Below, piece after piece: positions 27,045-50,921 of a stretch of 64,000 nucleotides of DNA. The DNA comes from a virus. Each line of letters starts with the position of its first letter. Positions within the stretch are counted from its first letter, which is position 1. The notes beneath the pieces are model-generated. The model was not told the origin of the DNA, ran no database searches, and saw only the letters and a list, made by a program, of their open reading frames with translations. The stretch lies in the IMG/VR virus record IMGVR_UViG_3300006734_000008, positions 1 to 64,000 of that record, one strand, 5' to 3'. A program made the translations under genes and the position numbers.

Positions 27045-27434
27045 ATGAAAGCATTTTTCTTCACCCTACTATTGTCCTGCTTTACATGGACTAGCTTTTC
27101 TCAAATCGTACAATACGATTATGATAGTACTGCATTTTGTTTTAACTCTAATGTTAAATCATCATGTGTAGATACTTGTTCACCAGCACAACCAGCTTCA
27201 ATAACTCTGAGTGTGGACTTAGACAGTTTTACACTATATTTTAATGGTGAACAACGAGTGTACACATTAGATAAGATGTTCAGCTTTAAAGATGAATATT
27301 TTATTCTAAAAGGTACAGCCCCAAATGATACACAGGTGAAACTTTTCATTTCACCGTACAAGTGTGTATTAGCCAACAATGAATGTAACTTACAATTCAA
27401 GTTTATAGCTTGTAAAGAAGAAGATGATGAGTGA
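27045..27434 (+). CDS. secreted Cys-containing protein
   Basis: Signal peptide MKAFFFTLLLSCFTWTSFS; 129 aa. Confidence 0.4.
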   Translation: MKAFFFTLLLSCFTWTSFSQIVQYDYDSTAFCFNSNVKSSCVDTCSPAQPASITLSVDLDSFTLYFNGEQRVYTLDKMFSFKDEYFILKGTAPNDTQVKLFISPYKCVLANNECNLQFKFIACKEEDDE

Positions 27435-28332
27435 TAAACCTATATTGATGCACAATTATCCTGATGGTACATCTTATTTCAGAACTGATGATGCTAAAAA
27501 ATCAGAGATAGTATGGCGCATCCAAAACTATGAACAACTGTGGCAATTAGCACAGTATGTTGATGCTTTTAGACAATATGATTCAATGAATCGTAGAAAG
27601 CTACAGGTAACTCTTCCTCGTCTTATTGATGCACAGGCTGACTCAAGATTTGGGCGGTATTCTTATAGTCTCAAGATAGTTCTTGATTTTCTTAATTCTT
27701 TAGATGTAGATATTTATGTTATTTATCATCCACACAATCCTCAAGCAGTGGAAATGGGTTTGAATAATGTCGCAATCTTAAAGAATTATACTTTCATTGA
27801 GAAAGTACTTCAAGACTTAGCAATAAATGTATATCATTTACCTGCAGAGTGGGTACATGACCATTATATTACAACTGTAAATGAAAGACTGTATCCTCTT
27901 GTTCATCTTTTAGCTGCTGATGCAGGAGGTTATAAGCCTCTTATGGATACAGTTAAAAGGCTAAGATGGGGAGGTAAGGTTCACTCTGCGTCTAAATCTC
28001 GTGTAGATGGTAAGTTACATCAAATTCTTTCAGTCAATGACTTTAAGGGTAAGGATGTACTCATTGTTGATGATATTTGCGTATATGGTGGAACCTTTAA
28101 AGGTTTAGCCAAATTATTACGAGAGAGAAATGCAGGAAGATTATTCCTGGCTGTCAGTCATATGACTGTACAAAACTTAGGTAAAGATTCAGTAGTACGT
28201 TACTTTGATAGAGTATACACCACCAATAGCACATATGATTACTATATGCATGTTGTTGATGAGGATGGTACTATTGAGGAAAAGCCTGATAATTTGAATG
28301 TAATTGAACTTTTTAACCCTGATAACAGATGA
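27424..28332 (+). CDS. prs: ribose-phosphate pyrophosphokinase-like type-I phosphoribosyltransferase
   Basis: PRPP-binding loop DVLIVDDICVYGGTFKG; two-domain 302-aa size; N-terminal DG-containing segment. Confidence 0.55.
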   Translation: MMSDKPILMHNYPDGTSYFRTDDAKKSEIVWRIQNYEQLWQLAQYVDAFRQYDSMNRRKLQVTLPRLIDAQADSRFGRYSYSLKIVLDFLNSLDVDIYVIYHPHNPQAVEMGLNNVAILKNYTFIEKVLQDLAINVYHLPAEWVHDHYITTVNERLYPLVHLLAADAGGYKPLMDTVKRLRWGGKVHSASKSRVDGKLHQILSVNDFKGKDVLIVDDICVYGGTFKGLAKLLRERNAGRLFLAVSHMTVQNLGKDSVVRYFDRVYTTNSTYDYYMHVVDEDGTIEEKPDNLNVIELFNPDNR

Positions 28333-29807
28333 ATCCATTTTTAGGAACTGATGGGTACAAAACAGGTCACATGCCTATGTATCCAGAGGGAACAAGTTTG
28401 GTTGTATCCAACTTTACACCTCGAAGCAATAAGTATGCACCAAATGGAATAGACAGCGTAGTTGTCTTTGGACTCCAAATGGTCATGCATCAAATACACG
28501 ATGGTTTTCAACGTGATTTCTTCAATCAACCCAAAAGAGCAGTCTGTAATGAGATTAAAGACGAGTATTCCATGTACCTAGGTATGGATTATGATGTCTC
28601 TCATATCGAAGCCCTGTGGGATTTAGGTTTTCTCCCTATTGAAATGAAAGCCTTGGAAGAAGGAACGTTGTGTCCCATTGGTGTACCCGTGTTAACCATT
28701 AAGAATACTTATGAAGAGTTCTTCTGGTTGACAAACTTCCTGGAGACTTTAATCTCCAACTTGTTGTGGAAACCTATTACATCCGCAACAATTGCCCTTG
28801 AGTTCAAGAAAGTACTCACTAAATGGGCACTCAAGACCGATGCTGATAATGTCGGCTTTGTGGATTTTCAAGGACATGATTTCTCTATGAGAGGCATGGA
28901 CTCCCTCGAAGCTGTCATTAGTTCAGGATTAGGTCATGCAACAAGCTTCTTAGGTTCTGATAGTTTGCCAACAATACATGGCGCCAGAAAATACTATCGT
29001 GAACCTGATGGAGTGATTTACTCAGTAAATGCTACCGAGCACTCAGTGATGTGTGCTGGTGGTCATGAAACTGAAATTGACACATTTCGTAGGCTTATGT
29101 CTATCTTTCCTAAAGGTATTCTCTCCATTGTATCTGATACATGGGACTTGTGGAAAGTGTTGACAGCTTATTTGCCTGAATTACATGATGAAATTCTTGC
29201 AAGAGATGGTAAAATTGTCATTCGTCCTGATTCTGGTAATCCTGCTGACATCCTTTGTGGAACTGTAATGGATGACCGAGAAGACATGAAAACTTTACCT
29301 GAACACAAAGGTGTAATTGAACTCCTTTGGGATGAATTTGGTGGAACTGTAAATGAGCAGGGATACAAAGTTCTAAATCCTAAGATTGGAGCAATCTATG
29401 GAGACTCTATCACCTTGGAAAGAGCTGAAGAAATATGTCAACGGTTGGAACAGAAAGGCTTTGCAAGTACTAACGTGGTACTGGGCATAGGAAGCTTTAC
29501 TTACCAGTTCAACACTCGTGACACTTTTGGTTTTGCTATGAAAGCAACTTATGTAGAAATTACAGATGCCGAGGGAAAAGTAATTGGTAGAGAAATCTAC
29601 AAAGACCCTATTACTGATGACGGAACTAAAAAGAGTGCCAAGGGACTACTTCAAGTTGTGAAAACCGCTGATGGTCTTGTATTAAAAGACCAAGTAAGTT
29701 GGTTAGAAGAAAGAGAGGGGGAACTCCAAACAATCTATGAGGATGGACTATTCTTCAACCCAACAACTTTAACCCAAATCAGGGAGCGTGTCGCAGCCTT
29801 GGTTTAA
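28329..29807 (+). CDS. nadV: nicotinamide phosphoribosyltransferase (NadV/NAMPT family)
   Basis: N-terminal GTDGYKTGH motif, about 490 aa, type II PRTase-like architecture; ATGA overlap with prs-like gene. Confidence 0.65.
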   Translation: MNPFLGTDGYKTGHMPMYPEGTSLVVSNFTPRSNKYAPNGIDSVVVFGLQMVMHQIHDGFQRDFFNQPKRAVCNEIKDEYSMYLGMDYDVSHIEALWDLGFLPIEMKALEEGTLCPIGVPVLTIKNTYEEFFWLTNFLETLISNLLWKPITSATIALEFKKVLTKWALKTDADNVGFVDFQGHDFSMRGMDSLEAVISSGLGHATSFLGSDSLPTIHGARKYYREPDGVIYSVNATEHSVMCAGGHETEIDTFRRLMSIFPKGILSIVSDTWDLWKVLTAYLPELHDEILARDGKIVIRPDSGNPADILCGTVMDDREDMKTLPEHKGVIELLWDEFGGTVNEQGYKVLNPKIGAIYGDSITLERAEEICQRLEQKGFASTNVVLGIGSFTYQFNTRDTFGFAMKATYVEITDAEGKVIGREIYKDPITDDGTKKSAKGLLQVVKTADGLVLKDQVSWLEEREGELQTIYEDGLFFNPTTLTQIRERVAALV

Positions 29808-29817
29808 ACTGTCGCAA

Positions 29818-29844
29818 GGGGAGGCTTAGGTCTCCCCTTTTTTT
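29818..29844 (+). terminator. rho-independent terminator
   Basis: GGGGAG-gcttaggt-CTCCCC hairpin followed by TTTTTTT. Confidence 0.6.
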
Positions 29845-29847
29845 CAA

Positions 29848-30222
29848 ATGTATACAGCATTAATCATTGGATTTTTGGTCTATCATTATTTGGCAGACTA
29901 TATCCTTCAGGATTTAGACACTAGGCAAAGTAAGTCTAGTCAGCTAGATACTCTAATAAGACATGTGAGTATTTACTCATTCTCTTATATTCCACTTATT
30001 CTTATTCTTACTGTAGGAGTAGGTTTTACTCATTGGATGTGGTTGTTTATACCCATAACTCTTGTAACTCACTACATTATTGATAGTATTACAAGCCGTG
30101 TATCAACCAGATATCTTCAAGAAGACAGAATGTGGGAAGCTGTAAATGTAATGGGTCTTGACCAATTACTACACAACATAAGGATTATTCTAACCGTTTA
30201 TTTGATTCTATTATGGGGATAA
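29848..30222 (+). CDS. integral membrane protein
   Basis: 124 aa, four hydrophobic helices. Confidence 0.4.
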   Translation: MYTALIIGFLVYHYLADYILQDLDTRQSKSSQLDTLIRHVSIYSFSYIPLILILTVGVGFTHWMWLFIPITLVTHYIIDSITSRVSTRYLQEDRMWEAVNVMGLDQLLHNIRIILTVYLILLWG

Positions 30223-30326
30223 CAACAGTTAGTATAATCTATTTAGGCTGTCTTTGCCTAGTATTCATTGCAATTCGCAAGATAATCAAATGGATGCAAA
30301 AAGACATATAGAGTTTATCTCTATAT

Positions 30327-30400
30327 ACACTCATAGCTCAATTGGATAGAGCGACAGCCTTCTAAGCTGTAGGTTATAGGTTCGACTCCTATTGGGTGTA
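30327..30400 (+). tRNA. tRNA-Arg (anticodon TCT)
   Basis: Acceptor ACACTCA/TGGGTGT, D-arm GCTC-AATTGGATA-GAGC, anticodon arm ACAGC-CTTCTAA-GCTGT, T-arm ATAGG-TTCGACT-CCTAT, discriminator A. Confidence 0.8.
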
Positions 30401-30492
30401 CAACACTAGGTCGCACAGGCGTAGGGATTTAATAATTATAGATGATAAATATAGTCGCCTACAGAGAGTTGAAATACTTTCTCTAGTGGTAT

Positions 30493-30578
30493 GCAGGAGT
30501 GGTGGAATTGGTAGACACGCAGGACTTAAAATCCTGTGAGCAGTAATGTTCGTGAGGGTTCGACTCCCTCCTCCTGCA
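30493..30578 (+). tRNA. tRNA-Leu (anticodon TAA), type II with long variable arm
   Basis: Acceptor GCAGGAG/CTCCTGC, anticodon arm CAGGA-CTTAAAA-TCCTG, long variable arm, T-arm GAGGG-TTCGACT-CCCTC. Confidence 0.8.
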
Positions 30579-30592
30579 CTAAAAAAACAATA

Positions 30593-30925
30593 ATGACTTT
30601 ACAAGAACTAAAAGATTGGCAACTGAACTTTAAAGAAAGAGTTTGGGAAGGTTATTCTCCTAAACTTAACTTTAGAGGTAAAAGAACACTTAAAATTAAT
30701 GGTGTTAGCTTTTGGGAAGATTCTTCTATTGGAACTATAGATTTTTCATATAAGAAAATGTATGGTTTCTTAAGTCCTGACAATGGTCTATATAGTGGAG
30801 ATAATTATTATCCTATCATTAAGGGTATTTTATGTAGAACTATGGGTGGAACAGTTTCTGGTGGAAAAAATCTTGAAGAATTTGCCTCAGCAGTAAAAGA
30901 ATATTGGAAATACTTTATATCATGA
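30593..30925 (+). CDS. hypothetical protein
   Basis: Track ORF 30536 overlaps tRNA-Leu; first ATG after tRNA is 30593 (MTLQELK). Confidence 0.4.
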   Translation: MTLQELKDWQLNFKERVWEGYSPKLNFRGKRTLKINGVSFWEDSSIGTIDFSYKKMYGFLSPDNGLYSGDNYYPIIKGILCRTMGGTVSGGKNLEEFASAVKEYWKYFIS

Positions 30926-31070
30926 AAGCAGGATTTCTTTTTCGATGGTGGAGTTTCTGGATAGGGCTCCACTATTCAAAGTTCAACAAAAGACTGTGCA
31001 TCAATATACTTCCCTGTTGCACAATTTGGATAGTTTTTGAGGGAGGTAAAGAACCAATAATCAAAAATCT

Positions 31071-31286
31071 ATGAGTTATCGTAATAATTTAGTTAGAAAA
31101 AAGGTAATAATTGCTTTTATAGCCTTTACCCTAACCCTTTGGATAGGGGCTTCAATTACTTGGGGAGAGTCTAATGTCCTTTGTTGGCATGAGTGTGCTC
31201 CTGATGGTAGACAAGCTGTCCCCGTTGTTACTTGGATAATCTTGAATATCATACTTGTTTGGTATTATATAGTTGAAGCGGATTAA
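31071..31286 (+). CDS. small membrane protein
   Basis: 71 aa, two TM helices. Confidence 0.35.
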   Translation: MSYRNNLVRKKVIIAFIAFTLTLWIGASITWGESNVLCWHECAPDGRQAVPVVTWIILNIILVWYYIVEAD

Positions 31287-31299
31287 TACTTAATTAAGA

Positions 31300-32607
31300 A
31301 TGCTCAAGAAAAGCGACCAGTTTAACCCTAACTATTTAGCTAAGGTTGTTAAACTAAAGGGATTACAGAAACATTCTAATGCAGATAGGCTACAAACCTG
31401 TCTCATAGACTTTCAAAATGTAATCACTGACATGAAAGCAAAAGATGGAGATATCTATGTATACTTTCCTGTGGAGTGTCAGATTAATAAAGACTTTCTT
31501 TCTAAGACTAATAGTTTTAGAGACAAGACTCTCAATACAGAACCAGATGAAGGTGGGTTCTTTGAAAAGCATTGTAGAGTCAAAGCCATGAGCCTCAGAG
31601 GTGAGAGGAGTATGGGATATATTGTACCAGCTAATCATGTATTTGAATGGGCTGGTGTCAATAAAAATCCATCAGATTTTGTTAATACTGAGTTTGATAC
31701 TATCAATGAGAAGTTGCTTCTCAAGAAATACATCAAAAAGGTCAACAAACATGATGGACCACCTAACAAAAAAGGCAAAAAACCAGCCCTGTCAAGACTG
31801 ATTGAGGGACAAGTACATTTACATGTAGATACTGATAATCTCAGAAAATACATGTCTAATATCAAGCCATCAGATACTATCTCTATTACCTATAAGACAC
31901 ATGGAACCTCGTGGTGGGTCAGTAATGTGCTAGTAAAGAAGAAGTTAAATTGGATTGAGAAAGTACTCCTTAATCTTGGTGTTAAGATACAAACAGAAGA
32001 GTATGATTTGGTCTATGGTTCAAGACGAGTAGTTAAGAATAAACAGTTCGAAGACCCAAAGGGACAAGACCACTTCTATGGCTATGATTTGTGGAAAGAC
32101 ATCAAAGATGAGATTGGATACAAAATTCCTAAAGGCTTTACTCTCTATGGAGAGATGATAGGCTATGATAAGGAAGGAAATTTCATTCAAAAACCATTTG
32201 ATTATGGTTGCAGACCAGGAGAACACAAACTTGAAGTGTATAGAATAACTTATACTAATCCAAATGGAGTAGTTATGGAGTTGTCTACACCACAGATAGT
32301 TGAGTTCTGTTTGAGAAACAGATTGAATCCATCTTACAGGTATTTTACAGGTAAAGCGAGAGATTTATATCCTCAACTGCATACTGGTGAGTATTGGCAT
32401 GAAAAATTCATCTCTAATTTAGAGGATGACTATGCTAATGGTGAAAGATGTTTTAGGTGTAACAACAAGGTTCCTGCTGAAGGTATATGTCTCAGAGTTG
32501 AAAGACTCTATGAATATGAGATTTATAAGTTGAAAAGCTTTGAATTTCTTGAATTTGAGACTAAACAACTTGATGCAGGAGAATCTAATATTGAGGATAC
32601 CGCATGA
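31300..32607 (+). CDS. putative ATP-dependent RNA ligase (covalent nucleotidyltransferase, Rnl5-like KxHG type)
   Basis: Motif I-like ITYKTHGTS, motif IV-like EGICLRVE, motif V-like YKLKS, about 190-aa N-terminal extension; neighbours are Pnk kinase and phosphoesterase. Confidence 0.45.
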   Translation: MLKKSDQFNPNYLAKVVKLKGLQKHSNADRLQTCLIDFQNVITDMKAKDGDIYVYFPVECQINKDFLSKTNSFRDKTLNTEPDEGGFFEKHCRVKAMSLRGERSMGYIVPANHVFEWAGVNKNPSDFVNTEFDTINEKLLLKKYIKKVNKHDGPPNKKGKKPALSRLIEGQVHLHVDTDNLRKYMSNIKPSDTISITYKTHGTSWWVSNVLVKKKLNWIEKVLLNLGVKIQTEEYDLVYGSRRVVKNKQFEDPKGQDHFYGYDLWKDIKDEIGYKIPKGFTLYGEMIGYDKEGNFIQKPFDYGCRPGEHKLEVYRITYTNPNGVVMELSTPQIVEFCLRNRLNPSYRYFTGKARDLYPQLHTGEYWHEKFISNLEDDYANGERCFRCNNKVPAEGICLRVERLYEYEIYKLKSFEFLEFETKQLDAGESNIEDTA

Positions 32608-32999
32608 AACGTGATGACCTATTAGAGAAATTGCGTGAGATGCAAAATTTACCTACAAGAGATGAACTGTTTCGTTGGATACAGTCTCTTCCAAAAGATA
32701 AACATCTTGGTACACCTGAACAATTCAAAGTTGGTGATATATTTATGCATCCAATCTTCAATCATCCATATGTTCTTCTAAAGAAGACAAATGATGGTTA
32801 TCTTTGTACACTTATGACTTCAGATGGTGAGTTTGCAGAGGTACTTACTCAATGTAAATCTAGGTTCTTTAGCGATTCTTTTATTGTGAAGAATCTCTTT
32901 GAACGACAAAATATCTCTCAAGATGCCTTCATGGGTATCTATGATAATAACAAACATCTGAAAGAAGTTTTAAAACAGTTACAAACCGTAATGTCATAA
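32604..32999 (+). CDS. hypothetical protein
   Basis: 131-aa ORF between ligase and kinase, overlapping stops/starts. Confidence 0.4.
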   Translation: MKRDDLLEKLREMQNLPTRDELFRWIQSLPKDKHLGTPEQFKVGDIFMHPIFNHPYVLLKKTNDGYLCTLMTSDGEFAEVLTQCKSRFFSDSFIVKNLFERQNISQDAFMGIYDNNKHLKEVLKQLQTVMS

Positions 33000-33472
33000 T
33001 GCCTAAGTTAATCATACTTATTGGACCTTCGGGCTCAGGTAAATCTACCTGGGCTCATGAGGCCCATATAAAAGACCCTAACAATGTTGTTATTGTCAAT
33101 AGGGACAAGATTCGCGAGTTACTCTTTGGTTATCTTGAAGATAACATTAAAGAGTATTACCTTCGACATGACTTTCCTGCAAGAGAGAAAGAAGTTACAA
33201 TATATGAAAATATATTGATACACAGCTCTCTTAATCTAAACAAAACAGTCATTGTTGATGCTACACATCTAAAACTCAAATACCTTAAAAGATATGATGT
33301 CTTGAAAGATAAGGGAATTGATGTGGAATACAAGTATTTCGATGCTGATATGGGTACTCTATTAGAGCGTCAGACCCTACGTATTCGTAAGGTAGGCAAA
33401 GAGATACTTGAAAGACAATTGGATATGTATCACAAGCTACAAAACAATCCTCATGCGATTAAATACAAATGA
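32999..33472 (+). CDS. pnk: polynucleotide 5'-kinase (T4 Pnk kinase-domain-like P-loop kinase)
   Basis: IILIGPSGSGKSTWAHE Walker A and downstream VNRD, closely paralleling the T4 Pnk kinase domain N-terminus. Confidence 0.55.
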   Translation: MPKLIILIGPSGSGKSTWAHEAHIKDPNNVVIVNRDKIRELLFGYLEDNIKEYYLRHDFPAREKEVTIYENILIHSSLNLNKTVIVDATHLKLKYLKRYDVLKDKGIDVEYKYFDADMGTLLERQTLRIRKVGKEILERQLDMYHKLQNNPHAIKYK

Positions 33473-34124
33473 TGGTAATATCTGGTTTACATCAGATACT
33501 CATTTTAACCATACTAATATTGTAAAAGGTATCAGTAAGTGGAAAAAGGGTGGTATGCGTGATATGAACGAAAATCTAGAGTATATGAATACTCTTCTTC
33601 TAGAGGAAATCAATAAAAGAGTTCAACCCAATGACACTCTTATTCATTTAGGTGACTTTGCTTTTGGTGATAAGACTCAGATTCCTCATTTTCTTGACCG
33701 AATTCTATGTAAAAATGTGCATTTAGTATTTGGAAACCATGACCATTGGATTAGAGCTCACTATAAACATCTTTTCAAATCAGTTCATGAATTACTTGAA
33801 TTGACAATTGTAGAGGCTCAACCAATTGTTAATGGTCGTCAACAAAAAGCTAAGAAGTATAATTTCGTACTTTGTCACTATCCACTCTTTGTGTGGAATG
33901 GTCATATGAAAGGATGGATACATCTTCATGGTCATTGCCACAATTCTATGTATCACACTACACCAGACTATTACAAACGTAAAGCTATGGATGTAGGAGT
34001 TGATACTATTTTCAACCAATTTGGATATTATGGTCCTATTAGCTATTCTCATATTATGGAACTACTTCGTAATAAAGAATTAGTCGAAGTAGACCACCAT
34101 GATGCCAATACAAATGTGTATTGA
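33456..34124 (+). CDS. calcineurin-like metallophosphoesterase (2',3'/3'-phosphatase candidate)
   Basis: Motifs DTHFNH, GDFAFGD, GNHDHW, H..GH.H; start chosen at ATG 33456 overlapping pnk stop. Confidence 0.55.
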   Translation, partial: RLNTNDGNIWFTSDTHFNHTNIVKGISKWKKGGMRDMNENLEYMNTLLLEEINKRVQPNDTLIHLGDFAFGDKTQIPHFLDRILCKNVHLVFGNHDHWIRAHYKHLFKSVHELLELTIVEAQPIVNGRQQKAKKYNFVLCHYPLFVWNGHMKGWIHLHGHCHNSMYHTTPDYYKRKAMDVGVDTIFNQFGYYGPISYSHIMELLRNKELVEVDHHDANTNVY

Positions 34125-34174
34125 TATGCCATGTAATTATGTAGAAAATCACGACCCACCTAATTGGTTATAAC

Positions 34175-34720
34175 ATGAAAATAATCAGAAACATTGGTTT
34201 GATATTACTCTGTTTTTTGTTTATATTTGCATCCCGCAAAGAAAACAGGAAGGTTGTAGAACCTGCAAAGGTCACTACTCCAGTGATACTCAAACCTGTA
34301 GAACTTGACCTACCTGAAGGATGGATATTCAAACAGGTAGCGTACTACTGTGACAGTTTTAATGTGCCTAAAAAATACATTTATGATGTAGGGATGAATG
34401 AATCAGGATGGAGAAATCCTAATGATTCTAACTTCATCATAGGGCCATGGTATGTCCCAGGTGAATCTTCTCACGGAGATTTACAAATGATAAACTCCAC
34501 ATGGAGGATATACTCTAAAAGGTTAGGTCTCACCAAGAAGACCAGAAAGAATCTATTGATTGCATGTATAGCAATGTCCAAAGATTGCTATCTCTTAGGA
34601 GACAGCTCATGGAGAAAAGCTCGCTATATTTATGCAAGAGGTAGATGGAAGTCTCCTAGTAAATGGACAAAACTAGAGAGAAAATTCATGTCCAAAATGA
34701 ACTTCGAAAAGTACAACTAA
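34175..34720 (+). CDS. lytic transglycosylase (SLT/lysozyme-like) domain protein with N-terminal signal/TM
   Basis: NESGW...GDLQMINSTW resembles SLT catalytic Glu-Ser and GLMQ motifs; N-terminal hydrophobic segment. Confidence 0.45.
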   Translation: MKIIRNIGLILLCFLFIFASRKENRKVVEPAKVTTPVILKPVELDLPEGWIFKQVAYYCDSFNVPKKYIYDVGMNESGWRNPNDSNFIIGPWYVPGESSHGDLQMINSTWRIYSKRLGLTKKTRKNLLIACIAMSKDCYLLGDSSWRKARYIYARGRWKSPSKWTKLERKFMSKMNFEKYN

Positions 34721-34971
34721 TGGAAATCACAAAAGCCCAAGTTGCGGAGTGGAACTATTACCGTAGGAGAATCAAGAATTATCCTAAAGTTCCTAAATTA
34801 GTAGAGAAATTGACTCGAAAATTTAGAGGGAAAGAATCTGTCACAGTACCACAAGGTCTGGTCAGAATTTCTTTCAGAAGTTTCTTAATGAGAGTTGAGA
34901 ACTTTCACAAAGACCATCTTCCTAACCTTACAGTTAGAAGATTTGACCCAGTTTATAAACCAAAAGAATGA
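34720..34971 (+). CDS. hypothetical protein
   Basis: ATG overlapping upstream stop (TAATG). Confidence 0.35.
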   Translation: MEITKAQVAEWNYYRRRIKNYPKVPKLVEKLTRKFRGKESVTVPQGLVRISFRSFLMRVENFHKDHLPNLTVRRFDPVYKPKE

Positions 34972-35053
34972 TTTGTCCATATTGTCAAGAATACACTGTT
35001 GGCTAGGTTCCAACAGGTACTCCAGATGTGGGAGGAATGAATATCTGTAATTA

Positions 35054-35461
35054 TTGTCAAGAGTATTCAATACCTTTCGAATGAAACTCATAATTGCAGG
35101 TAGCAGAGACTTTACAGACTATGCTCATCTTAAGCATATATTGTTAAATAACTACGATATTGCTGAGATAAGTGAGATTGTCTCAGGCACTGCAAGAGGA
35201 GCTGATAGATTGGGGGAAAAGTTTGCCAAAGAGCATTCTATTCCCCTTCGTCAGTTTCCTGCAGACTGGGATAAACATGGTAAATCTGCAGGATATATCC
35301 GTAACAAACAAATGGCTGACTATGCTGATGCATTGGTAGTATTTTGGGACGGACGTTCAAAAGGAACAAAACACATGATAAATCTGGCTAACTTAGCTGG
35401 ATTAAATGTGAAAATCTTCTTATACGGCTTTGAAGCCAGTTTACAGAAGAAACTATTTTAG
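35054..35461 (+). CDS. SLOG-superfamily (DUF2493/YspA-like) Rossmann-fold protein
   Basis: IIAGSRDF...VSGTARGADRLGE...VVFWDG pattern typical of DprA/LOG-like SLOG domains common in phages. Confidence 0.45.
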   Translation: MSRVFNTFRMKLIIAGSRDFTDYAHLKHILLNNYDIAEISEIVSGTARGADRLGEKFAKEHSIPLRQFPADWDKHGKSAGYIRNKQMADYADALVVFWDGRSKGTKHMINLANLAGLNVKIFLYGFEASLQKKLF

Positions 35462-35868
35462 GGCCTGACTGGAATTGACAGGTATCTGAGAGTATATGAA
35501 CATGCAGTCAGATTGATTTACTCTGACTTGAATCTCGTAAATTAACAAATAACTGGAAACAGTTTATCTAACACTACTGTAGAAGAGTTCATCTCAACTA
35601 TGGTAGTTGCAGAGCGTGAAGTAGCAGTAGCGTAATGCAGCAGGTGTTATCCCTACCTAGGAACAGAAAAGGGGTAAAATTTAACTCGAAAAAGGATAAG
35701 GAGAGTATAAATTTGGAGTGACAGTATCCTTGAAAGACCCGTAGGTTTAGCTGTTATCACTACCCTGGTGGAGGTTGAATTCCAGATTCAGCCCTAATTT
35801 TTAAGCATGTATAATTTGTATATTTGATGTTACGCTGGACGGGGGTTCGACTCCCCTCAGGTCCACTA
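35461..35868 (+). ncRNA. ssrA: tmRNA (ssrA-like transfer-messenger RNA), one-piece, with tag reading frame GCA GAG CGT GAA GTA GCA GTA GCG TAA (AEREVAVA*) at 35609-35635
   Basis: 5' end GGGCCTGACTGGAATTGACAGG parallels E. coli GGGGCUGAUUCUGGAUUCGACGGG; 3' end CTGGACGGGGGTTCGACTCCCCTCAGGTCCACTA gives T-arm GGGGG-TTCGACT-CCCCT and acceptor 3' strand pairing the 5' GGGCCTG; resume codon GCA preceded by TAGTT (E. coli has TAGTC GCA); tag ends VAVA then TAA. Confidence 0.7.
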
Positions 35869-35880
35869 AAAACTTATGAA

Positions 35881-36414
35881 ATGGCTAGTTTAAATCGAGG
35901 GCTTAGAAAGCTCAAAAGAGTTGTCAAACAGGTTACAAGTAAAAGACAAGATGTCTTAAAACCTTATGAACAACAACTAACTGATATTCTTGGGCACGGC
36001 TGGGCTGTTGTCAGAGATTACGGGAATGGTTATACCTTTAAGTTAAACTATGGGTATGATTACTCAAGTAGGCAGACTTTCAGATTACTCACTCTTAGTG
36101 GTAAAGTAATTTCAGAATTTACCATGAGACAAATGCCCGGATGTTGTGGAATAGTTGTCTCTACAGGGTCTACTGTAGACCCAAAGTACAGAGGTAAAGG
36201 TATTGGTACTATTCTTAATGAACTTCGTAAAGACATAGCGAGAGCTAATGGATTTGGATGTTTAATGTGTACCACTATCCTCAGTAATACACCACAACAA
36301 AAAATTTTGGAACGTAATGAATGGGAACTCGTCAATACGTTCAATAACCCTAGAACAGGGAATGATTTAGGAGTTCATATTTACAATCTCAATGAACAGG
36401 ACCGTAACACATGA
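35881..36414 (+). CDS. GNAT-fold acyltransferase-like protein
   Basis: GCCGIVVSTGSTVDPKYRGKGIGTILNEL resembles GNAT motif A (R-x-x-G-x-G); real start taken after tmRNA 3' end (MASLNRG). Confidence 0.45.
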   Translation: MASLNRGLRKLKRVVKQVTSKRQDVLKPYEQQLTDILGHGWAVVRDYGNGYTFKLNYGYDYSSRQTFRLLTLSGKVISEFTMRQMPGCCGIVVSTGSTVDPKYRGKGIGTILNELRKDIARANGFGCLMCTTILSNTPQQKILERNEWELVNTFNNPRTGNDLGVHIYNLNEQDRNT

Positions 36415-48071: not shown

Positions 48072-48879
48072 ATTTAAATACGTTAGAATACGTTCAAGAC
48101 ACCCATCACATGAAGTTTTAAGAAAGAATCCTTCCTTAAGATTTGATGGAAAGTCTGTATTTCGTCTTGGCAGCACTACGCAGGTAGATGTTCCTCACGA
48201 AATCAATACCGTTGAAGCTGTTAAAGTATCTTCAAATAAACTGAAGATGAAAGAAGCTTTCAAGAATGGTAAGATACAAAGCCCAAAGATGTACACCATT
48301 ACAGACCCTTTTAATACTGCTGAGATTGAAAAATATCCATTAGTAGCTAAGAAAGTTCTTGGTAGTAGGGGACGGGGTATGCAGTTCATTGAGAATGAAG
48401 AGCAATTACTACAATTCTTTAATGGTAATACTCAAGGATACTACTTAGAGCAATACTTTTCAGGAGCTAGAGAGTATCGTTTACATGTTTCAGCACTTGG
48501 ATGCTTCTATGCTTGCCGTAAGCTTAGAAAATCTGATGCTGAAGAGAGATGGTATTTCAATTCAAACAACTGTATCTGGGCTACAGAGAAAGAACAAGAG
48601 TTGGATGAGGATGGGAATTTCGTAAAATTCACTAATGTGGATTCTGAACAATTCAATAAACCAACTACTTGGTGCCAAATTGTAGCACAATCACAGAAAG
48701 CTTTATCTGCGGTAGGGCTTGATGTCGGAGCAGTTGATGTTAGAGTTAACACTAAAGGAGACTTTCAAATCTTGGAGACTAATTCAGCTCCTTCATTTGG
48801 TGAGAAGACTACTTTGATGTATCTCGAACACTTACCGCAACTCATGAATCATAAATACGGACTCAATCACAAATCATAA
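48049..48879 (+). CDS. ATP-grasp ligase (RimK/glutathione-synthetase-like)
   Basis: YPLVAKKVLGSRGRGMQFI (K-x-x-GS-x-G), E-x-N-type C-terminal motifs LETNSAPSF. Confidence 0.55.
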   Translation: METMKTPKFKYVRIRSRHPSHEVLRKNPSLRFDGKSVFRLGSTTQVDVPHEINTVEAVKVSSNKLKMKEAFKNGKIQSPKMYTITDPFNTAEIEKYPLVAKKVLGSRGRGMQFIENEEQLLQFFNGNTQGYYLEQYFSGAREYRLHVSALGCFYACRKLRKSDAEERWYFNSNNCIWATEKEQELDEDGNFVKFTNVDSEQFNKPTTWCQIVAQSQKALSAVGLDVGAVDVRVNTKGDFQILETNSAPSFGEKTTLMYLEHLPQLMNHKYGLNHKS

Positions 48880-50921
48880 TGTTAAGTTTATTTATCTTTG
48901 CTTTTGCCTTAGTGAATTTTATTTCACTCCTAATATTTAAGGGTAAGAGTAATGTGTTAAGTTGCGGATTAGGCGCATATAATGGTAAAGTAAAGCCAAA
49001 CGAACTCCTTCTCAAAGTTATTGGACAATACAATGAAGAAAGAGGTATACACTCTTGCGGAATTGCTGTCAACAATTTCATTGATGTAGGAGTAGGAAGT
49101 ATTGCACGTTTTAGGAATTTTGTCAAAGACTTTGACTTTCCTAAGATGACAAAGACCTTCAATGTAATCCTTCACACAAGGAAAGCAACTGTAGGTGCAC
49201 ACACTAAAGAGAATGCCCACCCTTTTGGGTTTGGGTGTGATACTGATGACCCAGAAGTTCCAGATGAAGAGGTTGGATACAACTTTATTGGAGCACATAA
49301 TGGAAGTCTCATAGACTGGAGAGACCTTACAAAGGATATTGAAATTCCTGAAGAGGTAACAGTCAATATGGATTCACAAGCTCTCCTTTACCGCTTATAT
49401 CATGATAAGAACTACAAGGTTCTGTCTGAGTATAAAGGAGCTGCAGCTCTTATCTTCTATAACTCGAATAATCCTGATAGGCTCTATGCCTTTAAGGGGG
49501 CAGCGGGTGATGATGAAGAAAGACCGCTGTACTATGTTCAGTATGTGAATAGTAGAGGTAAGGTTACTGGTGTATATCTATCTTCTATGAAAGAACCATT
49601 TGAGTTCGCTGGACTTAAAGACATCAAAGAAGTTCCTAACAACACTATCCTTACTTTTGAAGGTGGTGAAGTTATCAATGAGCTTAAAGTAAAAAGAGGC
49701 AAGGAATTAAGTACAGCATATGCTCGTAACAGTACAGCTGTAACAACAACTCCTTCTACGAGAACTAATGCCAGAGTTTCTCATTCAGGAGCACGTCAAA
49801 TTCCTATCAGCACTTTCACAGGTTCAGCCAAGGCTCATCAACTTCTTTTAACCCCAAACGAATATTTCGTGGGCAGCCATATCGTAGGCGGAAAGATTTA
49901 TTACCGTTGCGGACGTTACTTCCGTAATGGTCATTTAATCAATGGTATATGGCTTCTTCGCGAAGATGGTGAACAACTTGGATGGTATATGACTCAAGCT
50001 GTAGCCAATAAAGGTTTGAGGGATTTCCGCAAAAAGTACAATAAGAATAAGAAGAAGGATAAACTCAATGCTTCACTATATTACTTTGCAAAAGGTATTA
50101 TGTGTAAGGACTTTGAGGCCATGAATGATGCTAATGCAATGTTAGATGAGAATAGTACACGTTTAGGTGATTTATCTAAATGTTCGATATATCCCATCAC
50201 CTTTGTAGCATCAACTAATGATAACTATAGAGTATCTTCTTATCCTGCTTGGGACGGTAAACTAACTTTCAGTGCTAAGTTTAAGCCAGAATTTAGTTTA
50301 TACACCTTTGAGTACAATAATGGATACTTGGTAGATGTACAACCTGTGGACAGTAGAACTCCTTTCTTTGAAACTTTCTTAAAAGGAATGGATTTGAATA
50401 AAAAAACTAAGGCTTCCTTAGATTTCAAAGACATTTTTTCAGAATTGTTAGAGCCAAAAAAGGAGAAGCCCGTAGAGAAGAAGACACCTACGACTTCTGG
50501 GCAGAACTCTACGGATGGTATGCTCCAACAGTCTTCAGAGCTTAGTGCAGAAGAGGAGAAAGCAGCTCAGGAGCGTGTTGATGCCCTTATCAATGAGAGT
50601 TGGGATAAGTTCACAGAGACTACAAACTCTGATTGGACAGATATGGACGAAATTGCCATTGCACAAAGTCTTGACCAAGCTGAACAGCTAGTTCAAACTT
50701 ATGCAGAAGGTATGGGTCTATTTGAACCTGACCAAGTAGGTTATGAGATTAGTACAAAGCTTTTAGAAGCAGCGTATTATATAGCCAAGAAAGTTCAAGA
50801 GATTGGAGATGACTGTGGGTATGTATTTACTGATACAGAAACAGACCAACTTAAGTTAATTATCATGTCATATGAAATTTTAGAACATGTCGAAGGAAAC
50901 AAATTCAAAGAAGATAAGTAA
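48879..50921 (+). CDS. class-II (Ntn) glutamine amidotransferase domain protein with about 400-aa C-terminal extension
   Basis: SCG near N-terminus, ILHTRKATVG...ENAHPF and GAHNGSLID matching PurF/GlmS/AsnB glutaminase motifs; N-terminal 27 aa hydrophobic, true start uncertain (propeptide or misassigned). Confidence 0.5.
   Translation: MLSLFIFAFALVNFISLLIFKGKSNVLSCGLGAYNGKVKPNELLLKVIGQYNEERGIHSCGIAVNNFIDVGVGSIARFRNFVKDFDFPKMTKTFNVILHTRKATVGAHTKENAHPFGFGCDTDDPEVPDEEVGYNFIGAHNGSLIDWRDLTKDIEIPEEVTVNMDSQALLYRLYHDKNYKVLSEYKGAAALIFYNSNNPDRLYAFKGAAGDDEERPLYYVQYVNSRGKVTGVYLSSMKEPFEFAGLKDIKEVPNNTILTFEGGEVINELKVKRGKELSTAYARNSTAVTTTPSTRTNARVSHSGARQIPISTFTGSAKAHQLLLTPNEYFVGSHIVGGKIYYRCGRYFRNGHLINGIWLLREDGEQLGWYMTQAVANKGLRDFRKKYNKNKKKDKLNASLYYFAKGIMCKDFEAMNDANAMLDENSTRLGDLSKCSIYPITFVASTNDNYRVSSYPAWDGKLTFSAKFKPEFSLYTFEYNNGYLVDVQPVDSRTPFFETFLKGMDLNKKTKASLDFKDIFSELLEPKKEKPVEKKTPTTSGQNSTDGMLQQSSELSAEEEKAAQERVDALINESWDKFTETTNSDWTDMDEIAIAQSLDQAEQLVQTYAEGMGLFEPDQVGYEISTKLLEAAYYIAKKVQEIGDDCGYVFTDTETDQLKLIIMSYEILEHVEGNKFKEDK

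What the first reader, a model, noticed from the sequence alone, without database searches (positions are those of the whole stretch)
31300..34124. RNA end-healing and sealing cassette (RNA ligase, Pnk kinase, metallophosphoesterase) next to tRNA genes
This is a three-enzyme RNA repair set. A covalent nucleotidyltransferase-type ligase has a K-T-H-G motif I (Rnl5-like) plus motif IV/V-like EGICLRVE and YKLKS. A T4-Pnk-like P-loop 5'-kinase is present. A calcineurin-type phosphoesterase likely removes 2',3'-cyclic or 3'-phosphates. It lies about 1 kb downstream of tRNA-Arg(TCT) and tRNA-Leu(TAA), anticodon classes often cut by host anticodon nucleases, and about 1.3 kb upstream of the tmRNA. 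Together these suggest a counter-defence module restoring cleaved tRNAs. Splitting kinase and phosphatase into separate proteins, and using a metallophosphoesterase rather than a HAD phosphatase, mirrors bacterial PnkP/Hen1-type systems rather than T4.
Basis: partly seen in the sequence, partly recalled or inferred. Interest (0 to 1): 0.7.

Follow-up and report, generated by a model that had tools for sequence, protein, structure and literature searches.

The report
Phage RNA break-repair operon, split healing enzymes
A roughly 100-kb phage carries a compact four-gene operon (RNA ligase, MazF-like protein, RNA 5'-kinase, metal-dependent phosphatase) that most likely re-joins RNAs cut by host defence nucleases; this is a known strategy built from an uncharacterised combination of parts.

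Summary
Window 31300-34124 encodes an Rnl5-type RNA ligase, a T4-Pnk-type 5'-kinase without the usual phosphatase domain, and a calcineurin-type metallophosphoesterase (MPE). All catalytic motifs are conserved. The flanking tRNA-Arg(UCU), tRNA-Leu(UAA) and tmRNA are real.

Comparative evidence supports a heal-and-seal module:
- The closest ligase relatives sit next to a full T4-type Pnkp (kinase+HAD). Here the orthologous kinase (49% identity) has lost HAD and is followed by the MPE.
- Kinase-only genes pair with an MPE; kinase-HAD fusions do not (p = 5e-4 by lineage).
- Of 80 phage loci found through the MPE alone, 57 have a short kinase nearby and 36 a related ligase.

The comparison with bacterial Pnkp/Hen1 is superficial. 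The kinase is T4/Pnkp1-like, the MPE is aq_1665-like rather than lambda-phosphatase-like, and there is no Hen1. The two tRNAs decode the phage's commonest Arg and Leu codons, so they say little about anticodon nucleases. tRNA as the substrate is inferred, not shown.

Verdict: a new variant of a known kind, of moderate interest.

The parts
31300..32607 (+). Rnl5-type ATP-dependent RNA ligase (435 aa). It has an N-terminal OB domain (about residues 1-145), a disordered linker (149-164) and a nucleotidyltransferase domain running to about residue 425, with no C-terminal appendage. Motif I is K199-T-H-G, motif III is E285, motif IV is E394-G395 and motif V is K410/K412.
   Evidence: PHROG 968, E 4e-56. 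TIGR02306, E 1.7e-8. Invariant motif residues in 32 homologues. AF2 model with pLDDT 86. Foldseek top hits are NgrRnl, E 3e-14 over about 420 columns. 34% identical to mycobacteriophage Cjw1 'RNA ligase', which lies near the Cjw1 pseT gene.
32604..32999 (+). MazF/Kid/PemK-fold protein (131 aa). Two N-terminal helices precede an SH3-like barrel and a C-terminal helix. Conserved residues are G44, D45, H54, P55, T72, S86, R87 and N115. It is a facultative, recurrent neighbour of RNA-repair genes and its function is unknown.
32999..33472 (+). Polynucleotide 5'-hydroxyl kinase (157 aa) of the T4 Pnk/Pnkp1 clade. It is kinase domain only, with no HAD phosphatase domain. Key residues are the P-loop G9-PSGSGKST, D36 (T4 D35) and R39 (T4 R38).
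   Evidence: AAA_33, E 5e-17. PHROG 505, E 5e-31, matching the N-terminal half of a 295-position profile. PDB matches are Pnkp1 (4xrp) at 1.7e-9 and T4 Pnk at 1.7e-8, with the catalytic residues aligned. 49% identical to the kinase domain of a full-length Pnkp next to the closest ligase homologue.
33453..34124 (+). Calcineurin-type dinuclear metallophosphoesterase (223 aa) of the aq_1665/cd07390 type. It is the inferred 2',3'-cyclic phosphodiesterase / 3'-phosphatase end-healing enzyme.
   Evidence: PHROG 547, E 3.5e-46. Invariant D15, H17, G67-D68, G94-N95-H96-D97, H142, G160-H161 and H163. A family profile against PDB matches aq_1665 (1xm7) at 1.7e-12. Of 80 loci seeded on MPE homologues, 57 have a short kinase close by and 36 have an Rnl5-like ligase. 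The start at 33453 follows the gene calls on identical contigs.
30327..30401 (+). tRNA-Arg(UCU). Context only; it decodes the phage's commonest Arg codon.
   Evidence: ARAGORN, Rfam 71.5 bits, codon usage.
30493..30579 (+). tRNA-Leu(UAA). Context only; it decodes the phage's commonest Leu codon.
   Evidence: ARAGORN, Rfam 61.9 bits, codon usage.
35461..35868 (+). Phage-encoded tmRNA. Context only, as part of the same translation-rescue neighbourhood.
   Evidence: Rfam RF00023, 78.1 bits, E 1.3e-28, full-length model.

Best explanation
Window 31300-34124 is one compact operon of a tailed phage of about 102 kb. It encodes a classic 'heal-and-seal' RNA repair pathway in unfused form.

Proposed mechanism:
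- RNA cut by a metal-independent ribonuclease carries 2',3'-cyclic-phosphate (or 3'-phosphate) and 5'-OH ends.
- The 157-aa T4-Pnk-type kinase phosphorylates the 5'-OH end.
- The 223-aa dinuclear metallophosphoesterase opens and removes the 2',3'-cyclic or 3'-phosphate to leave a 3'-OH.
- The 435-aa Rnl5-type ligase adenylylates itself on K199, transfers AMP to the 5'-phosphate, and seals the break.

In this lineage the metallophosphoesterase has taken over the job of the HAD (DxDxT) phosphatase domain that is fused to the kinase in T4 Pnkp and in this phage's closest relatives.

The most likely biological role is to reverse damage to the translation apparatus (tRNA, possibly rRNA or tmRNA) inflicted by host abortive-infection or toxin ribonucleases.

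What is shown: the enzyme families, the conservation of catalytic residues, the operon structure and the conserved gene linkage. What is inferred: the order of the reactions, the substrate and the counter-defence role.

The fourth gene, a MazF-fold protein, is a facultative add-on whose role is open.
For: Enzyme identities:
- Ligase.
- Kinase.
- MPE.

Operon structure: the gene junctions are ATGA, TAATG and a 20-nt overlap.

In-situ displacement:
- The closest ligase homologues (58-60% identity; L005, L008) are followed directly by a 301-308-aa Pnkp with AAA_33 + HAD_PNKP domains.
- The window kinase is 49% identical to that kinase domain but ends where HAD would begin.

Mutual exclusivity among loci seeded on the ligase:
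- 9 of 10 kinase-only loci carry an MPE of at least 200 aa downstream.
- 0 of 15 kinase+HAD loci do.
- Fisher p = 5e-6 by locus and 5e-4 by lineage.

Two different MPE subfamilies occupy the same slot: the window type, and the cyanophage B3/L021 type.

Reciprocal test on 80 IMG/VR loci chosen only by MPE homology:
- 57 have a 127-174-aa P-loop kinase, nearly always within 1 kb, on the same strand, in either order.
- 36 have a PHA02142/Rnl5-like ligase within 8 kb.
- Three MPE homologues picked independently from large contigs show the same neighbours.
- L108 has ligase-kinase-MPE in the same order as the window.

Precedents:
- Mycobacteriophage Cjw1 has a homologous ligase near its pseT gene, annotated as a polynucleotide kinase/3'-phosphatase.
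- Metallophosphoesterases of CthPnkp and phage lambda do have 2',3'-cyclic phosphodiesterase and 3'-phosphatase activity (PMC2190708, PMC3675462).
- A comparative survey notes that calcineurin-like domains occasionally replace HAD in phage RNA repair (PMC7824862, section 3.4.9).

Neighbourhood:
- tRNA arrays abut the ligase or Pnkp in several relatives: L008, L012, L017, L027, L054, L065.
- NAD+ salvage genes, a YAcAr SLOG protein and a tmRNA flank the operon.
Against: - No activity has been measured for any of the four proteins or for close relatives of this MPE subfamily. Its only solved relative, aq_1665, has no known function.
- The same MPE family occurs in more than 1,300 cultured phage records. 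In the two examined, no kinase or RNA ligase is annotated within 4.5 kb (Flavobacterium phage immuto) and the overlapping upstream ORF has no evident P-loop (Cellulophaga phi17:2). It therefore need not always act in RNA repair.
- Characterised Rnl5 ligases seal nicks in duplexes with an RNA 3'-OH strand. They are not known to seal anticodon-loop breaks, and their physiological substrates are unknown (PMC4408790).
- Many ligase homologues (about half of 63 loci) have no detectable kinase or phosphatase within 6 kb.
- The two adjacent tRNAs are explained by codon usage.
- Promoter and terminator scans were uninformative.
Confidence: 0.7

Rival explanations
1. The enzymes repair nucleic acid nicks linked to DNA replication or repair rather than damaged RNA. 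In this reading the Rnl5-type ligase seals RNA-3'-OH/DNA-5'-phosphate nicks (RNA patches or primers), while the kinase and phosphatase clean DNA ends, as T4 Pnkp can do in vitro.
For: - Rnl5 enzymes prefer nicked duplexes and accept a DNA 5'-phosphate strand. A role in joining RNA-OH to pDNA has been proposed (PMC4408790).
- The operon lies 3 kb upstream of DNA polymerase A and the replication genes.
- In cyanophage loci a helicase precedes the ligase.
Against: - Recurrent linkage to tRNA arrays.
- The operon sits in an island with tRNAs, a tmRNA and NAD+ salvage genes.
- In T4 the homologous kinase works in tRNA repair.
Confidence: 0.12
2. The genes are neighbours but work separately. The MPE degrades nucleotide second messengers or other phosphoesters (anti-signalling), the P-loop protein is a small-molecule kinase, and only the ligase acts on RNA.
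For: - The MPE family is widespread, and in the two cultured phages examined no kinase or RNA ligase is annotated nearby.
- Its closest solved relative has no known function.
- Pfam scores for the window MPE are below threshold.
- Phage calcineurin-like phosphodiesterases have been proposed to attack cyclic nucleotide signals (PMC7824862, section 3.4.8).
Against: - The kinase is orthologous (49% identity) to the kinase domain of bona fide Pnkp-type proteins and keeps the Pnk catalytic Asp and Arg residues.
- Strict complementarity between loss of HAD and presence of an MPE.
- 71% kinase linkage in loci seeded on the MPE, with gene order shuffled, which argues for selection on the linkage itself.
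- Translational coupling of the genes.
Confidence: 0.08
3. The operon is a four-part 'cut-and-rejoin' or toxin-plus-repair system. [quoted passage not shown] The other three enzymes re-seal selected products, either for programmed RNA processing or as an antidote that protects phage or essential RNAs.
For: - MazF fold, with conserved residues at the positions of the MazF catalytic Arg and Thr.
- Translational coupling on both sides.
- Family members lie beside an MPE, kinase or ligase in at least five other arrangements: L078, L106/L144, L192/L195, L207, L215.
- Some are near CCA-adding-type nucleotidyltransferases.
- An RNA ligase reversing MazF cleavage has a cellular precedent in RtcB (PMC5416887).
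Against: - Most family members (about 90% of 102 loci) are not next to repair genes.
- None of the other ligase-seeded loci has one, and only 2 of the 80 MPE-seeded loci do.
- L108 has the same three-enzyme operon without it.
- Sequence similarity to MazF is negligible, so activity is unproven.
Confidence: 0.1

Closest known systems
Bacteriophage T4 Pnkp + Rnl1 tRNA repair pathway (answer to the PrrC anticodon nuclease), and the homologous Pnkp + RNA ligase pair of mycobacteriophages Cjw1/Omega
   Same: - The same three chemical steps: 5'-phosphorylation, 3'-dephosphorylation and ATP-dependent sealing.
- The kinase is a clear homologue of T4 Pnk.
- The ligase is 34% identical to the Cjw1 'RNA ligase', which lies about 0.8 kb from Cjw1 pseT.
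- The closest uncultured relatives still have the fused kinase-HAD Pnkp.
   Different: - The kinase lacks the HAD/DxDxT phosphatase domain. A separate dinuclear metallophosphoesterase takes its place.
- The ligase is Rnl5-type (N-terminal OB domain), not Rnl1.
- A MazF-fold gene is inserted in the operon.
Rnl5 RNA ligases (Deinococcus DraRnl, Naegleria NgrRnl)
   Same: - Same domain order: an N-terminal OB-like domain, then the nucleotidyltransferase, with no C-terminal domain.
- Best structural match over the full length.
- All nucleotidyltransferase motifs are present.
   Different: - About 100 residues longer, with an insertion after motif I (214-232) and other inserted segments.
- Motif I is KTHG, as in Rnl2 (T4 Rnl2 has KIHG), rather than having Asp at the third position as in NgrRnl (D172).
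- Only 13-15% identity to NgrRnl.
- Scores far below the TIGR02306 cutoff (33.7 against 151 bits).
- It belongs to the phage 'PHA02142'-type branch.
Bacterial Pnkp/Hen1 (Clostridium thermocellum Pnkp) RNA repair system
   Same: It uses a calcineurin-superfamily metallophosphoesterase, rather than a HAD enzyme, for 3' end healing, together with a P-loop kinase and an ATP-dependent ligase.
   Different: - In CthPnkp the three modules are fused in one polypeptide; here they are separate proteins.
- The MPE is aq_1665/cd07390-like, not lambda-phosphatase-like.
- The kinase is T4-type.
- The ligase is Rnl5-like, not Rnl4.
- There is no Hen1 methyltransferase.
MazF/Kid/PemK type II toxin endoribonucleases (for the 131-aa ORF)
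   Same: - Conserved GD, H/R-P and T-S positions line up with MazF GD, R29-P30 and T52.
   Different: - No detectable sequence-family membership.
- Has an extra N-terminal two-helix segment.
- His replaces the catalytic Arg in most members.
- No antitoxin gene is evident.
- It is encoded by lytic-type phages inside or beside RNA-repair genes.

Membership tests
Rnl5 RNA ligase family (DraRnl/NgrRnl) | N-terminal OB-like domain preceding the nucleotidyltransferase domain | tested here: met
   PF21189 on residues 13-110 (24 bits, just under the gathering score; homologues carry PF21189 + PF09414). The AF2 model aligns with NgrRnl over about 420 columns.
Rnl5 RNA ligase family (DraRnl/NgrRnl) | Covalent nucleotidyltransferase motifs I, III, IV and V with a conserved lysine nucleophile | tested here: met
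   K199, E285, E394-G395 and K410/K412 are invariant in 32 sequences at 54-63% identity.
Rnl5 RNA ligase family (DraRnl/NgrRnl) | No C-terminal appendage after the nucleotidyltransferase domain | tested here: met
   Motif V lies at 409-413 of 435 residues. The model shows only one terminal helix after it.
Rnl5 RNA ligase family (DraRnl/NgrRnl) | Score above the curated cutoff of the DRB0094 equivalog model TIGR02306 | tested here: not met
   33.7 bits against a cutoff of 151, and only residues 16-208 match. It is a divergent phage branch, not an equivalog.
Rnl5 RNA ligase family (DraRnl/NgrRnl) | Seals 3'-OH/5'-PO4 nicks that have an RNA 3'-OH strand | not testable with these tools
   Needs biochemistry.
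T4-type polynucleotide kinase-phosphatase (Pnkp) | P-loop kinase with the Pnk catalytic Asp (T4 D35) and Arg (R38, R126) | tested here: met
   G-SGSGKST, D36, R39 and an Arg in the RxxxR segment align with T4 Pnk and Pnkp1.
T4-type polynucleotide kinase-phosphatase (Pnkp) | C-terminal HAD (DxDxT) 3'-phosphatase domain fused to the kinase | tested here: not met
   The protein is 157 aa and covers only the first half of the PHROG 505 profile. Relatives have PF25109 HAD_PNKP and the window protein does not.
Calcineurin-like dinuclear metallophosphoesterases | Metal-binding and catalytic motifs DxH, GD, GNH(D/E), H, GH, GHxH | tested here: met
   D15, H17, G67-D68, G94-N95-H96-D97, H142, G160-H161 and H163 are invariant in 28 sequences.
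Calcineurin-like dinuclear metallophosphoesterases | Pfam gathering score for Metallophos / Metallophos_2 | tested here: not met
   The window protein scores 16.6 bits against 27. Homologues at 40% identity pass PF00149, PHROG 547 gives E 3.5e-46, and a family profile matches aq_1665 at 1.7e-12.
Calcineurin-like dinuclear metallophosphoesterases | RNA 2',3'-cyclic phosphodiesterase / 3'-phosphatase activity (as in CthPnkp and lambda phosphatase) | not testable with these tools
   Inferred only from gene linkage.
Bacterial Pnkp/Hen1 RNA repair system | Kinase, lambda-phosphatase-like MPE and Rnl4 ligase fused in one Pnkp polypeptide | tested here: not met
   There are three separate ORFs. The MPE profile does not detect CthPnkp or lambda phosphatase. 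The ligase is Rnl5-like.
Bacterial Pnkp/Hen1 RNA repair system | Partner Hen1 2'-O-methyltransferase | tested here: not met
   No methyltransferase domain was found in any ORF from 29848 to 36414.
MazF/PemK toxin family (131-aa ORF) | SH3-like barrel fold of MazF/Kid/CcdB | tested here: met
   [not shown]
MazF/PemK toxin family (131-aa ORF) | Sequence-family membership (Pfam PemK_toxin) and the catalytic Arg/Thr pair | tested here: inconclusive
   No Pfam or PDB sequence hit. hhalign gives E 0.038 but aligns H54-P55 to R29-P30 and T72 to T52. One member has R-P at this site.
MazF/PemK toxin family (131-aa ORF) | Adjacent cognate antitoxin gene | tested here: not met
   The flanking genes are the ligase and the kinase. 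No conserved small partner was found across 22 loci.

The most novel reading that the evidence does not exclude
The MazF-fold protein is a working part of the system. In this reading it is a phage endoribonuclease, or an RNA-end-binding or cyclic-phosphate-processing factor, that operates with the kinase, metallophosphoesterase and ligase. The operon would then be one of two things. It could be a programmed RNA cut-and-rejoin machine. Or it could be a toxin whose 'antitoxin' is enzymatic repair of the damage, with the phage cutting host RNAs while re-sealing the ones it needs. Neither arrangement has been described for phages.
Probability: 0.12. Interest if true: 0.8.

Novelty: new variant of a known kind. 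Interest (0 to 1): 0.5.

Why it matters
Phage RNA repair is the classic answer to host anticodon nucleases. It has gained relevance now that many defence systems (PrrC/RloC, retron and PARIS effectors, Cas13, toxin-antitoxin RNases) are known to cut tRNA.

This locus, with the hundreds of related loci found here, shows that a large set of environmental phages use an unfused kinase plus an aq_1665-type metallophosphoesterase plus an Rnl5-type ligase. None of these has been characterised biochemically in this combination.

It matters for three reasons:
- It gives a testable function to a very common phage 'phosphoesterase' (PHROG 547, found in more than 1,300 cultured phage genomes) and to the orphan structural-genomics protein aq_1665.
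- It documents a clean case of non-orthologous displacement (HAD replaced by MPE) at a fixed genomic position.
- It flags a MazF-fold family that repeatedly sits among RNA-repair genes.

For a specialist the core finding is expected rather than surprising.

Tried and rejected
- **Direct sequence search of the ligase against PDB:** found nothing. A family profile reached only T4 Rnl2, at E 0.009. The fold comparison was needed to place it.
- **Single-sequence locus search in IMG/VR:** failed. The alignment-based search worked.
- **tblastn synteny:** too insensitive. It was replaced by iterated local HMMs.
- **Word-index search for the 131-aa ORF:** found only two proteins and suggested an ORFan. 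The exhaustive search showed a family of 131 representatives.
- **The 131-aa ORF as a conserved core component:** rejected. It is absent from the other ligase-seeded loci and from most of its own family's neighbourhoods.
- **Family searches for the 131-aa family:** Pfam and PDB profile searches gave only noise.
- **Promoter and terminator scan:** gave no more sites than shuffled sequence.
- **Anticodon-nuclease reading of the two tRNAs:** set aside, because they match the most used codons and are common phage tRNAs.
- **Burroughs & Aravind 2016 survey of RNA repair systems:** could not be retrieved. Whether it already describes this exact gene triad is unchecked.
- **Cellulophaga phi17:2 gp017:** one script failed on output parsing. 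I looked only at the first 60 residues of gp017 by eye and saw no P-loop.

Full report
**1. What is in the sequence**

On the + strand between 31300 and 34124 there are four tightly packed ORFs, not three:
- 31300-32607 (435 aa)
- 32604-32999 (131 aa)
- 32999-33472 (157 aa)
- an ORF ending at 34124, which gene callers on identical contigs start at 33453 (223 aa)

The junctions are ATGA, TAATG and a 20-nt overlap, so the four genes form one translationally coupled unit.

- tRNA-Arg(UCU) lies at 30327-30401 and tRNA-Leu(UAA) at 30493-30579.
- A full-length tmRNA lies at 35461-35868. Rfam gives 78 bits. ARAGORN did not report it.

The window is part of a tailed phage of about 102 kb, with 37% GC. 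It encodes a portal, terminase, major head protein, DnaB, primase, PolA and ribonucleotide reductase.

**2. The ligase**

Sequence evidence:
- PHROG 968 'RNA ligase' matches end to end, E 4e-56.
- The DRB0094 model TIGR02306 matches the N-terminal half weakly, 33.7 bits against a cutoff of 151.
- Pfam sees the PHA02142 OB domain at residues 13-110.
- More than 1,100 homologues exist. Many carry PF21189 + PF09414.

Structural evidence:
- A confident AF2 model (pLDDT 86) matches Naegleria gruberi RNA ligase, the Rnl5 prototype, best. The E-value is 3e-14 and the alignment spans about 420 columns.
- Next come TbREL1 and T4 Rnl2 (1e-6), matching on the nucleotidyltransferase domain only.
- DNA ligases trail at 5e-4 or worse.

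The domain plan is an N-terminal OB domain, then the nucleotidyltransferase, with nothing after motif V. This is the defining Rnl5 organisation (PMC4408790). The protein is nevertheless a divergent, longer phage branch.

**3. The kinase**

- AAA_33, E 5e-17.
- PHROG 505 'polynucleotide kinase', E 5e-31, covering only the first half of that profile.
- The best solved relatives are Pnkp1 of the Pnkp1-Rnl-Hen1 complex (1.7e-9) and T4 Pnk (1.7e-8). The P-loop, the catalytic Asp (D36 = T4 D35) and the Arg residues are aligned.
- Pnkp1 is itself T4-like in both of its domains (PMC4411300).

This is therefore a T4-clade kinase that lacks the HAD domain.

**4. The phosphoesterase**

- PHROG 547, E 3.5e-46. 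Pfam scores for the window protein itself are sub-threshold.
- All six metallophosphoesterase motifs are invariant across 28 homologues.
- The only solved sequence relative is Aquifex aq_1665 (1xm7), a protein of unknown function. The E-value is 7e-5 with the single sequence and 1.7e-12 with the family profile. The Cellulophaga phage annotation places the family in CDD cd07390.
- Lambda phosphatase and the CthPnkp phosphatase are not detected.

The enzyme is a bona fide dinuclear phosphoesterase. Its substrate is not evident from homology.

**5. Do the three belong together?**

Three independent comparisons say yes.

(a) *Displacement in place.*
- In the loci with the closest ligase homologues (L005, L008; 58-60% identity), the gene directly downstream is a 301-308-aa protein with AAA_33 + HAD_PNKP. 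This is a canonical T4-type Pnkp.
- The window kinase is 49% identical to that kinase domain and stops at the domain boundary.
- The MPE gene follows instead.

(b) *Complementarity.*
- Among 63 loci seeded on the ligase, 15 have kinase+HAD and none of these has an MPE of at least 200 aa.
- 10 have a kinase-only gene, and 9 of these have such an MPE just downstream.
- Fisher p = 5e-6 by locus and 5e-4 after collapsing to lineages.
- The cyanophage-type loci (Synechococcus phage B3 relatives) use a different MPE subfamily in the same slot.

(c) *Reciprocal search.*
- 80 IMG/VR loci were picked solely by about 40% identity to the MPE.
- 57 contain a 127-174-aa P-loop kinase. It is almost always within 1 kb on the same strand, in either order.
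- 36 contain a PHA02142/Rnl5-type ligase within 8 kb.
- Three further homologues looked up individually show the same neighbours.
- L108 repeats the window's order of ligase, kinase and MPE.

Shuffled gene order with retained linkage is the signature of a functional module.

Mycobacteriophage Cjw1 has the homologous ligase (34% identity) next to its pseT gene, annotated as a polynucleotide kinase/3'-phosphatase.

**6. Mechanism**

The best-supported reading is the classic heal-and-seal pathway:
- The kinase makes the 5'-phosphate.
- The MPE converts 2',3'-cyclic phosphate or 3'-phosphate ends to 3'-OH. The metallophosphoesterases of CthPnkp and lambda phosphatase do this in vitro (PMC2190708, PMC3675462).
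- The ligase seals through a K199-AMP intermediate.

The enzyme families, catalytic residues, operon structure and linkage are shown. The reaction order, the substrate and the biological role are inferred.

For tRNA as the substrate:
- tRNA arrays abut the ligase or Pnkp in several relatives. In Flavobacterium phage immuto a tRNA array directly precedes the MPE.
- The operon sits in an island with NAD+ salvage genes, a YAcAr SLOG protein and a tmRNA. This matches the 'translation-apparatus rescue' theme described for large phages (PMC7824862).

Against over-reading:
- Characterised Rnl5 enzymes seal duplex nicks, and their natural substrates are unknown (PMC4408790).
- The two adjacent tRNAs decode the phage's commonest Arg codon (AGA, 53%) and commonest Leu codon (TTA, 27%).
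- The same tRNA pair occurs in unrelated phages.

**7. The overlooked gene**

The 131-aa ORF has no Pfam, PHROG or PDB sequence match. It does belong to a family with 131 cluster representatives. The family has strongly conserved G44, D45, H54, P55, T72, S86, R87 and N115.

Fold evidence:
- Its model is very confident (pLDDT 93).
- Phage PemK/MazF proteins appear in the viral structure library.
- A weak profile-profile alignment puts H54-P55 on MazF R29-P30 and T72 on T52. One family member has Arg-Pro at that site.

It is not a core part of the cassette:
- It is absent from the other ligase-seeded loci.
- Most of its relatives have unrelated neighbours.

It does recur among repair genes in several different arrangements:
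- MPE then ORF, in L078/L079.
- MPE, then a distant family member, then a ligase, in L106/L144.
- MPE, ORF, one gene, then kinase, in L192/L195.
- Ligase, one gene, then ORF, in L207.
- ORF, one gene, then MPE, in L215.
- Some members lie near CCA-adding-type nucleotidyltransferases.

MazF-type enzymes leave exactly the ends that this pathway heals. An RNA ligase reversing MazF damage has a cellular precedent (PMC5416887). Whether this protein is an RNase, a decoy or an accessory factor is open. I give about 12% to the reading that it is an integral partner.

**8. Comparison with known systems and novelty**

- Functionally this is the T4 Pnkp/Rnl pathway.
- Architecturally it differs in three ways: the kinase is unfused, an aq_1665-type MPE replaces HAD, and the ligase is Rnl5-type.
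- The similarity to bacterial Pnkp/Hen1 is limited to the use of the same phosphatase superfamily.
- A survey of jumbo phages already remarks that calcineurin-like domains occasionally provide the phosphatase in phage RNA repair (PMC7824862). The idea is therefore not new.
- This specific triad, its abundance, the in-place displacement and the MazF-fold neighbour are, as far as I could check, undescribed and untested.

I rate it a new variant of a known kind, with interest 0.5.

Noticed in passing
window 35847/35848 (inside the tmRNA, 35461-35868); L001 10538-11220: A contig of the same phage (L001, flanks 100% identical) carries an insertion of about 670 nt in the T-loop of the tmRNA's tRNA-like domain (GGGGGTT^CGA(A/C)TCCCC). 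Rfam identifies it as a group I intron (RF00028, 103 bits). A LAGLIDADG homing-endonuclease ORF lies on the opposite strand. The window and L003 carry the intron-less allele, so this is an intron presence/absence polymorphism in a phage tmRNA gene.
   Followed up: yes
window 35461-35868: The phage encodes a full-length tmRNA that Rfam detects (78 bits) but ARAGORN did not report. The tag reading frame was not examined.
   Followed up: partly
window 27424-30222 and 35054-35461: The repair operon is flanked by other candidate counter-defence genes. Upstream are a phosphoribosyltransferase and a nicotinamide phosphoribosyltransferase (NAD+ salvage) and a DUF3307 protein. Downstream are a YAcAr-family SLOG protein and then an acetyltransferase (35824-36414). 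Together with the tRNAs and the tmRNA this looks like an accessory 'rescue' island.
   Followed up: partly
window 31300-32607 (ligase residues C304, C337, C384, C387): Three invariant cysteines and one nearly invariant cysteine, including a CxxC just before motif IV, are conserved across the ligase family. This may be a structural zinc site, which I am not aware of in characterised Rnl5 enzymes. Distances in the model could not be measured.
   Followed up: no
L081, L085, L093, L095 (about 6100-6840 in L093): In four loci the MazF-fold family gene lies one or two genes from a 244-aa protein with a poly(A) polymerase/CCA-adding head domain (PF01743). This is another enzyme that mends tRNA ends.
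   Followed up: partly
L027 1100-1873, L028 2353-3126, L054 5226-5999: Next to the ligase and a tRNA-Gln/His/Pro array, the Pnkp is split into two adjacent ORFs (kinase 126 aa, HAD 99 aa). This could be a frameshift, an intervening element or a genuine split.
   Followed up: no
L068 1057-1506 and 2133-2612; L070 8939-9376: The shorter PHA02142-type ligases in other phages sit beside cREC_REC (PF20274) and HAD_SAK_2 (PF18143) proteins. These domains have been proposed elsewhere to process cyclic-phosphate RNA ends, so several alternative healing enzymes circulate around this ligase family.
   Followed up: no
window 48879-52758: Adjacent genes resembling a glutamine amidotransferase/aminotransferase and an amidoligase lie between the replication genes and ribonucleotide reductase. 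This is possibly a nucleotide or DNA modification pathway.
   Followed up: no
window 34175-34720: A 181-aa ORF directly after the operon has a hydrophobic N-terminus and no match in any family library. By eye it contains an E-S...G-x-L-Q-I-N-like stretch reminiscent of lytic transglycosylases. This was not tested.
   Followed up: no
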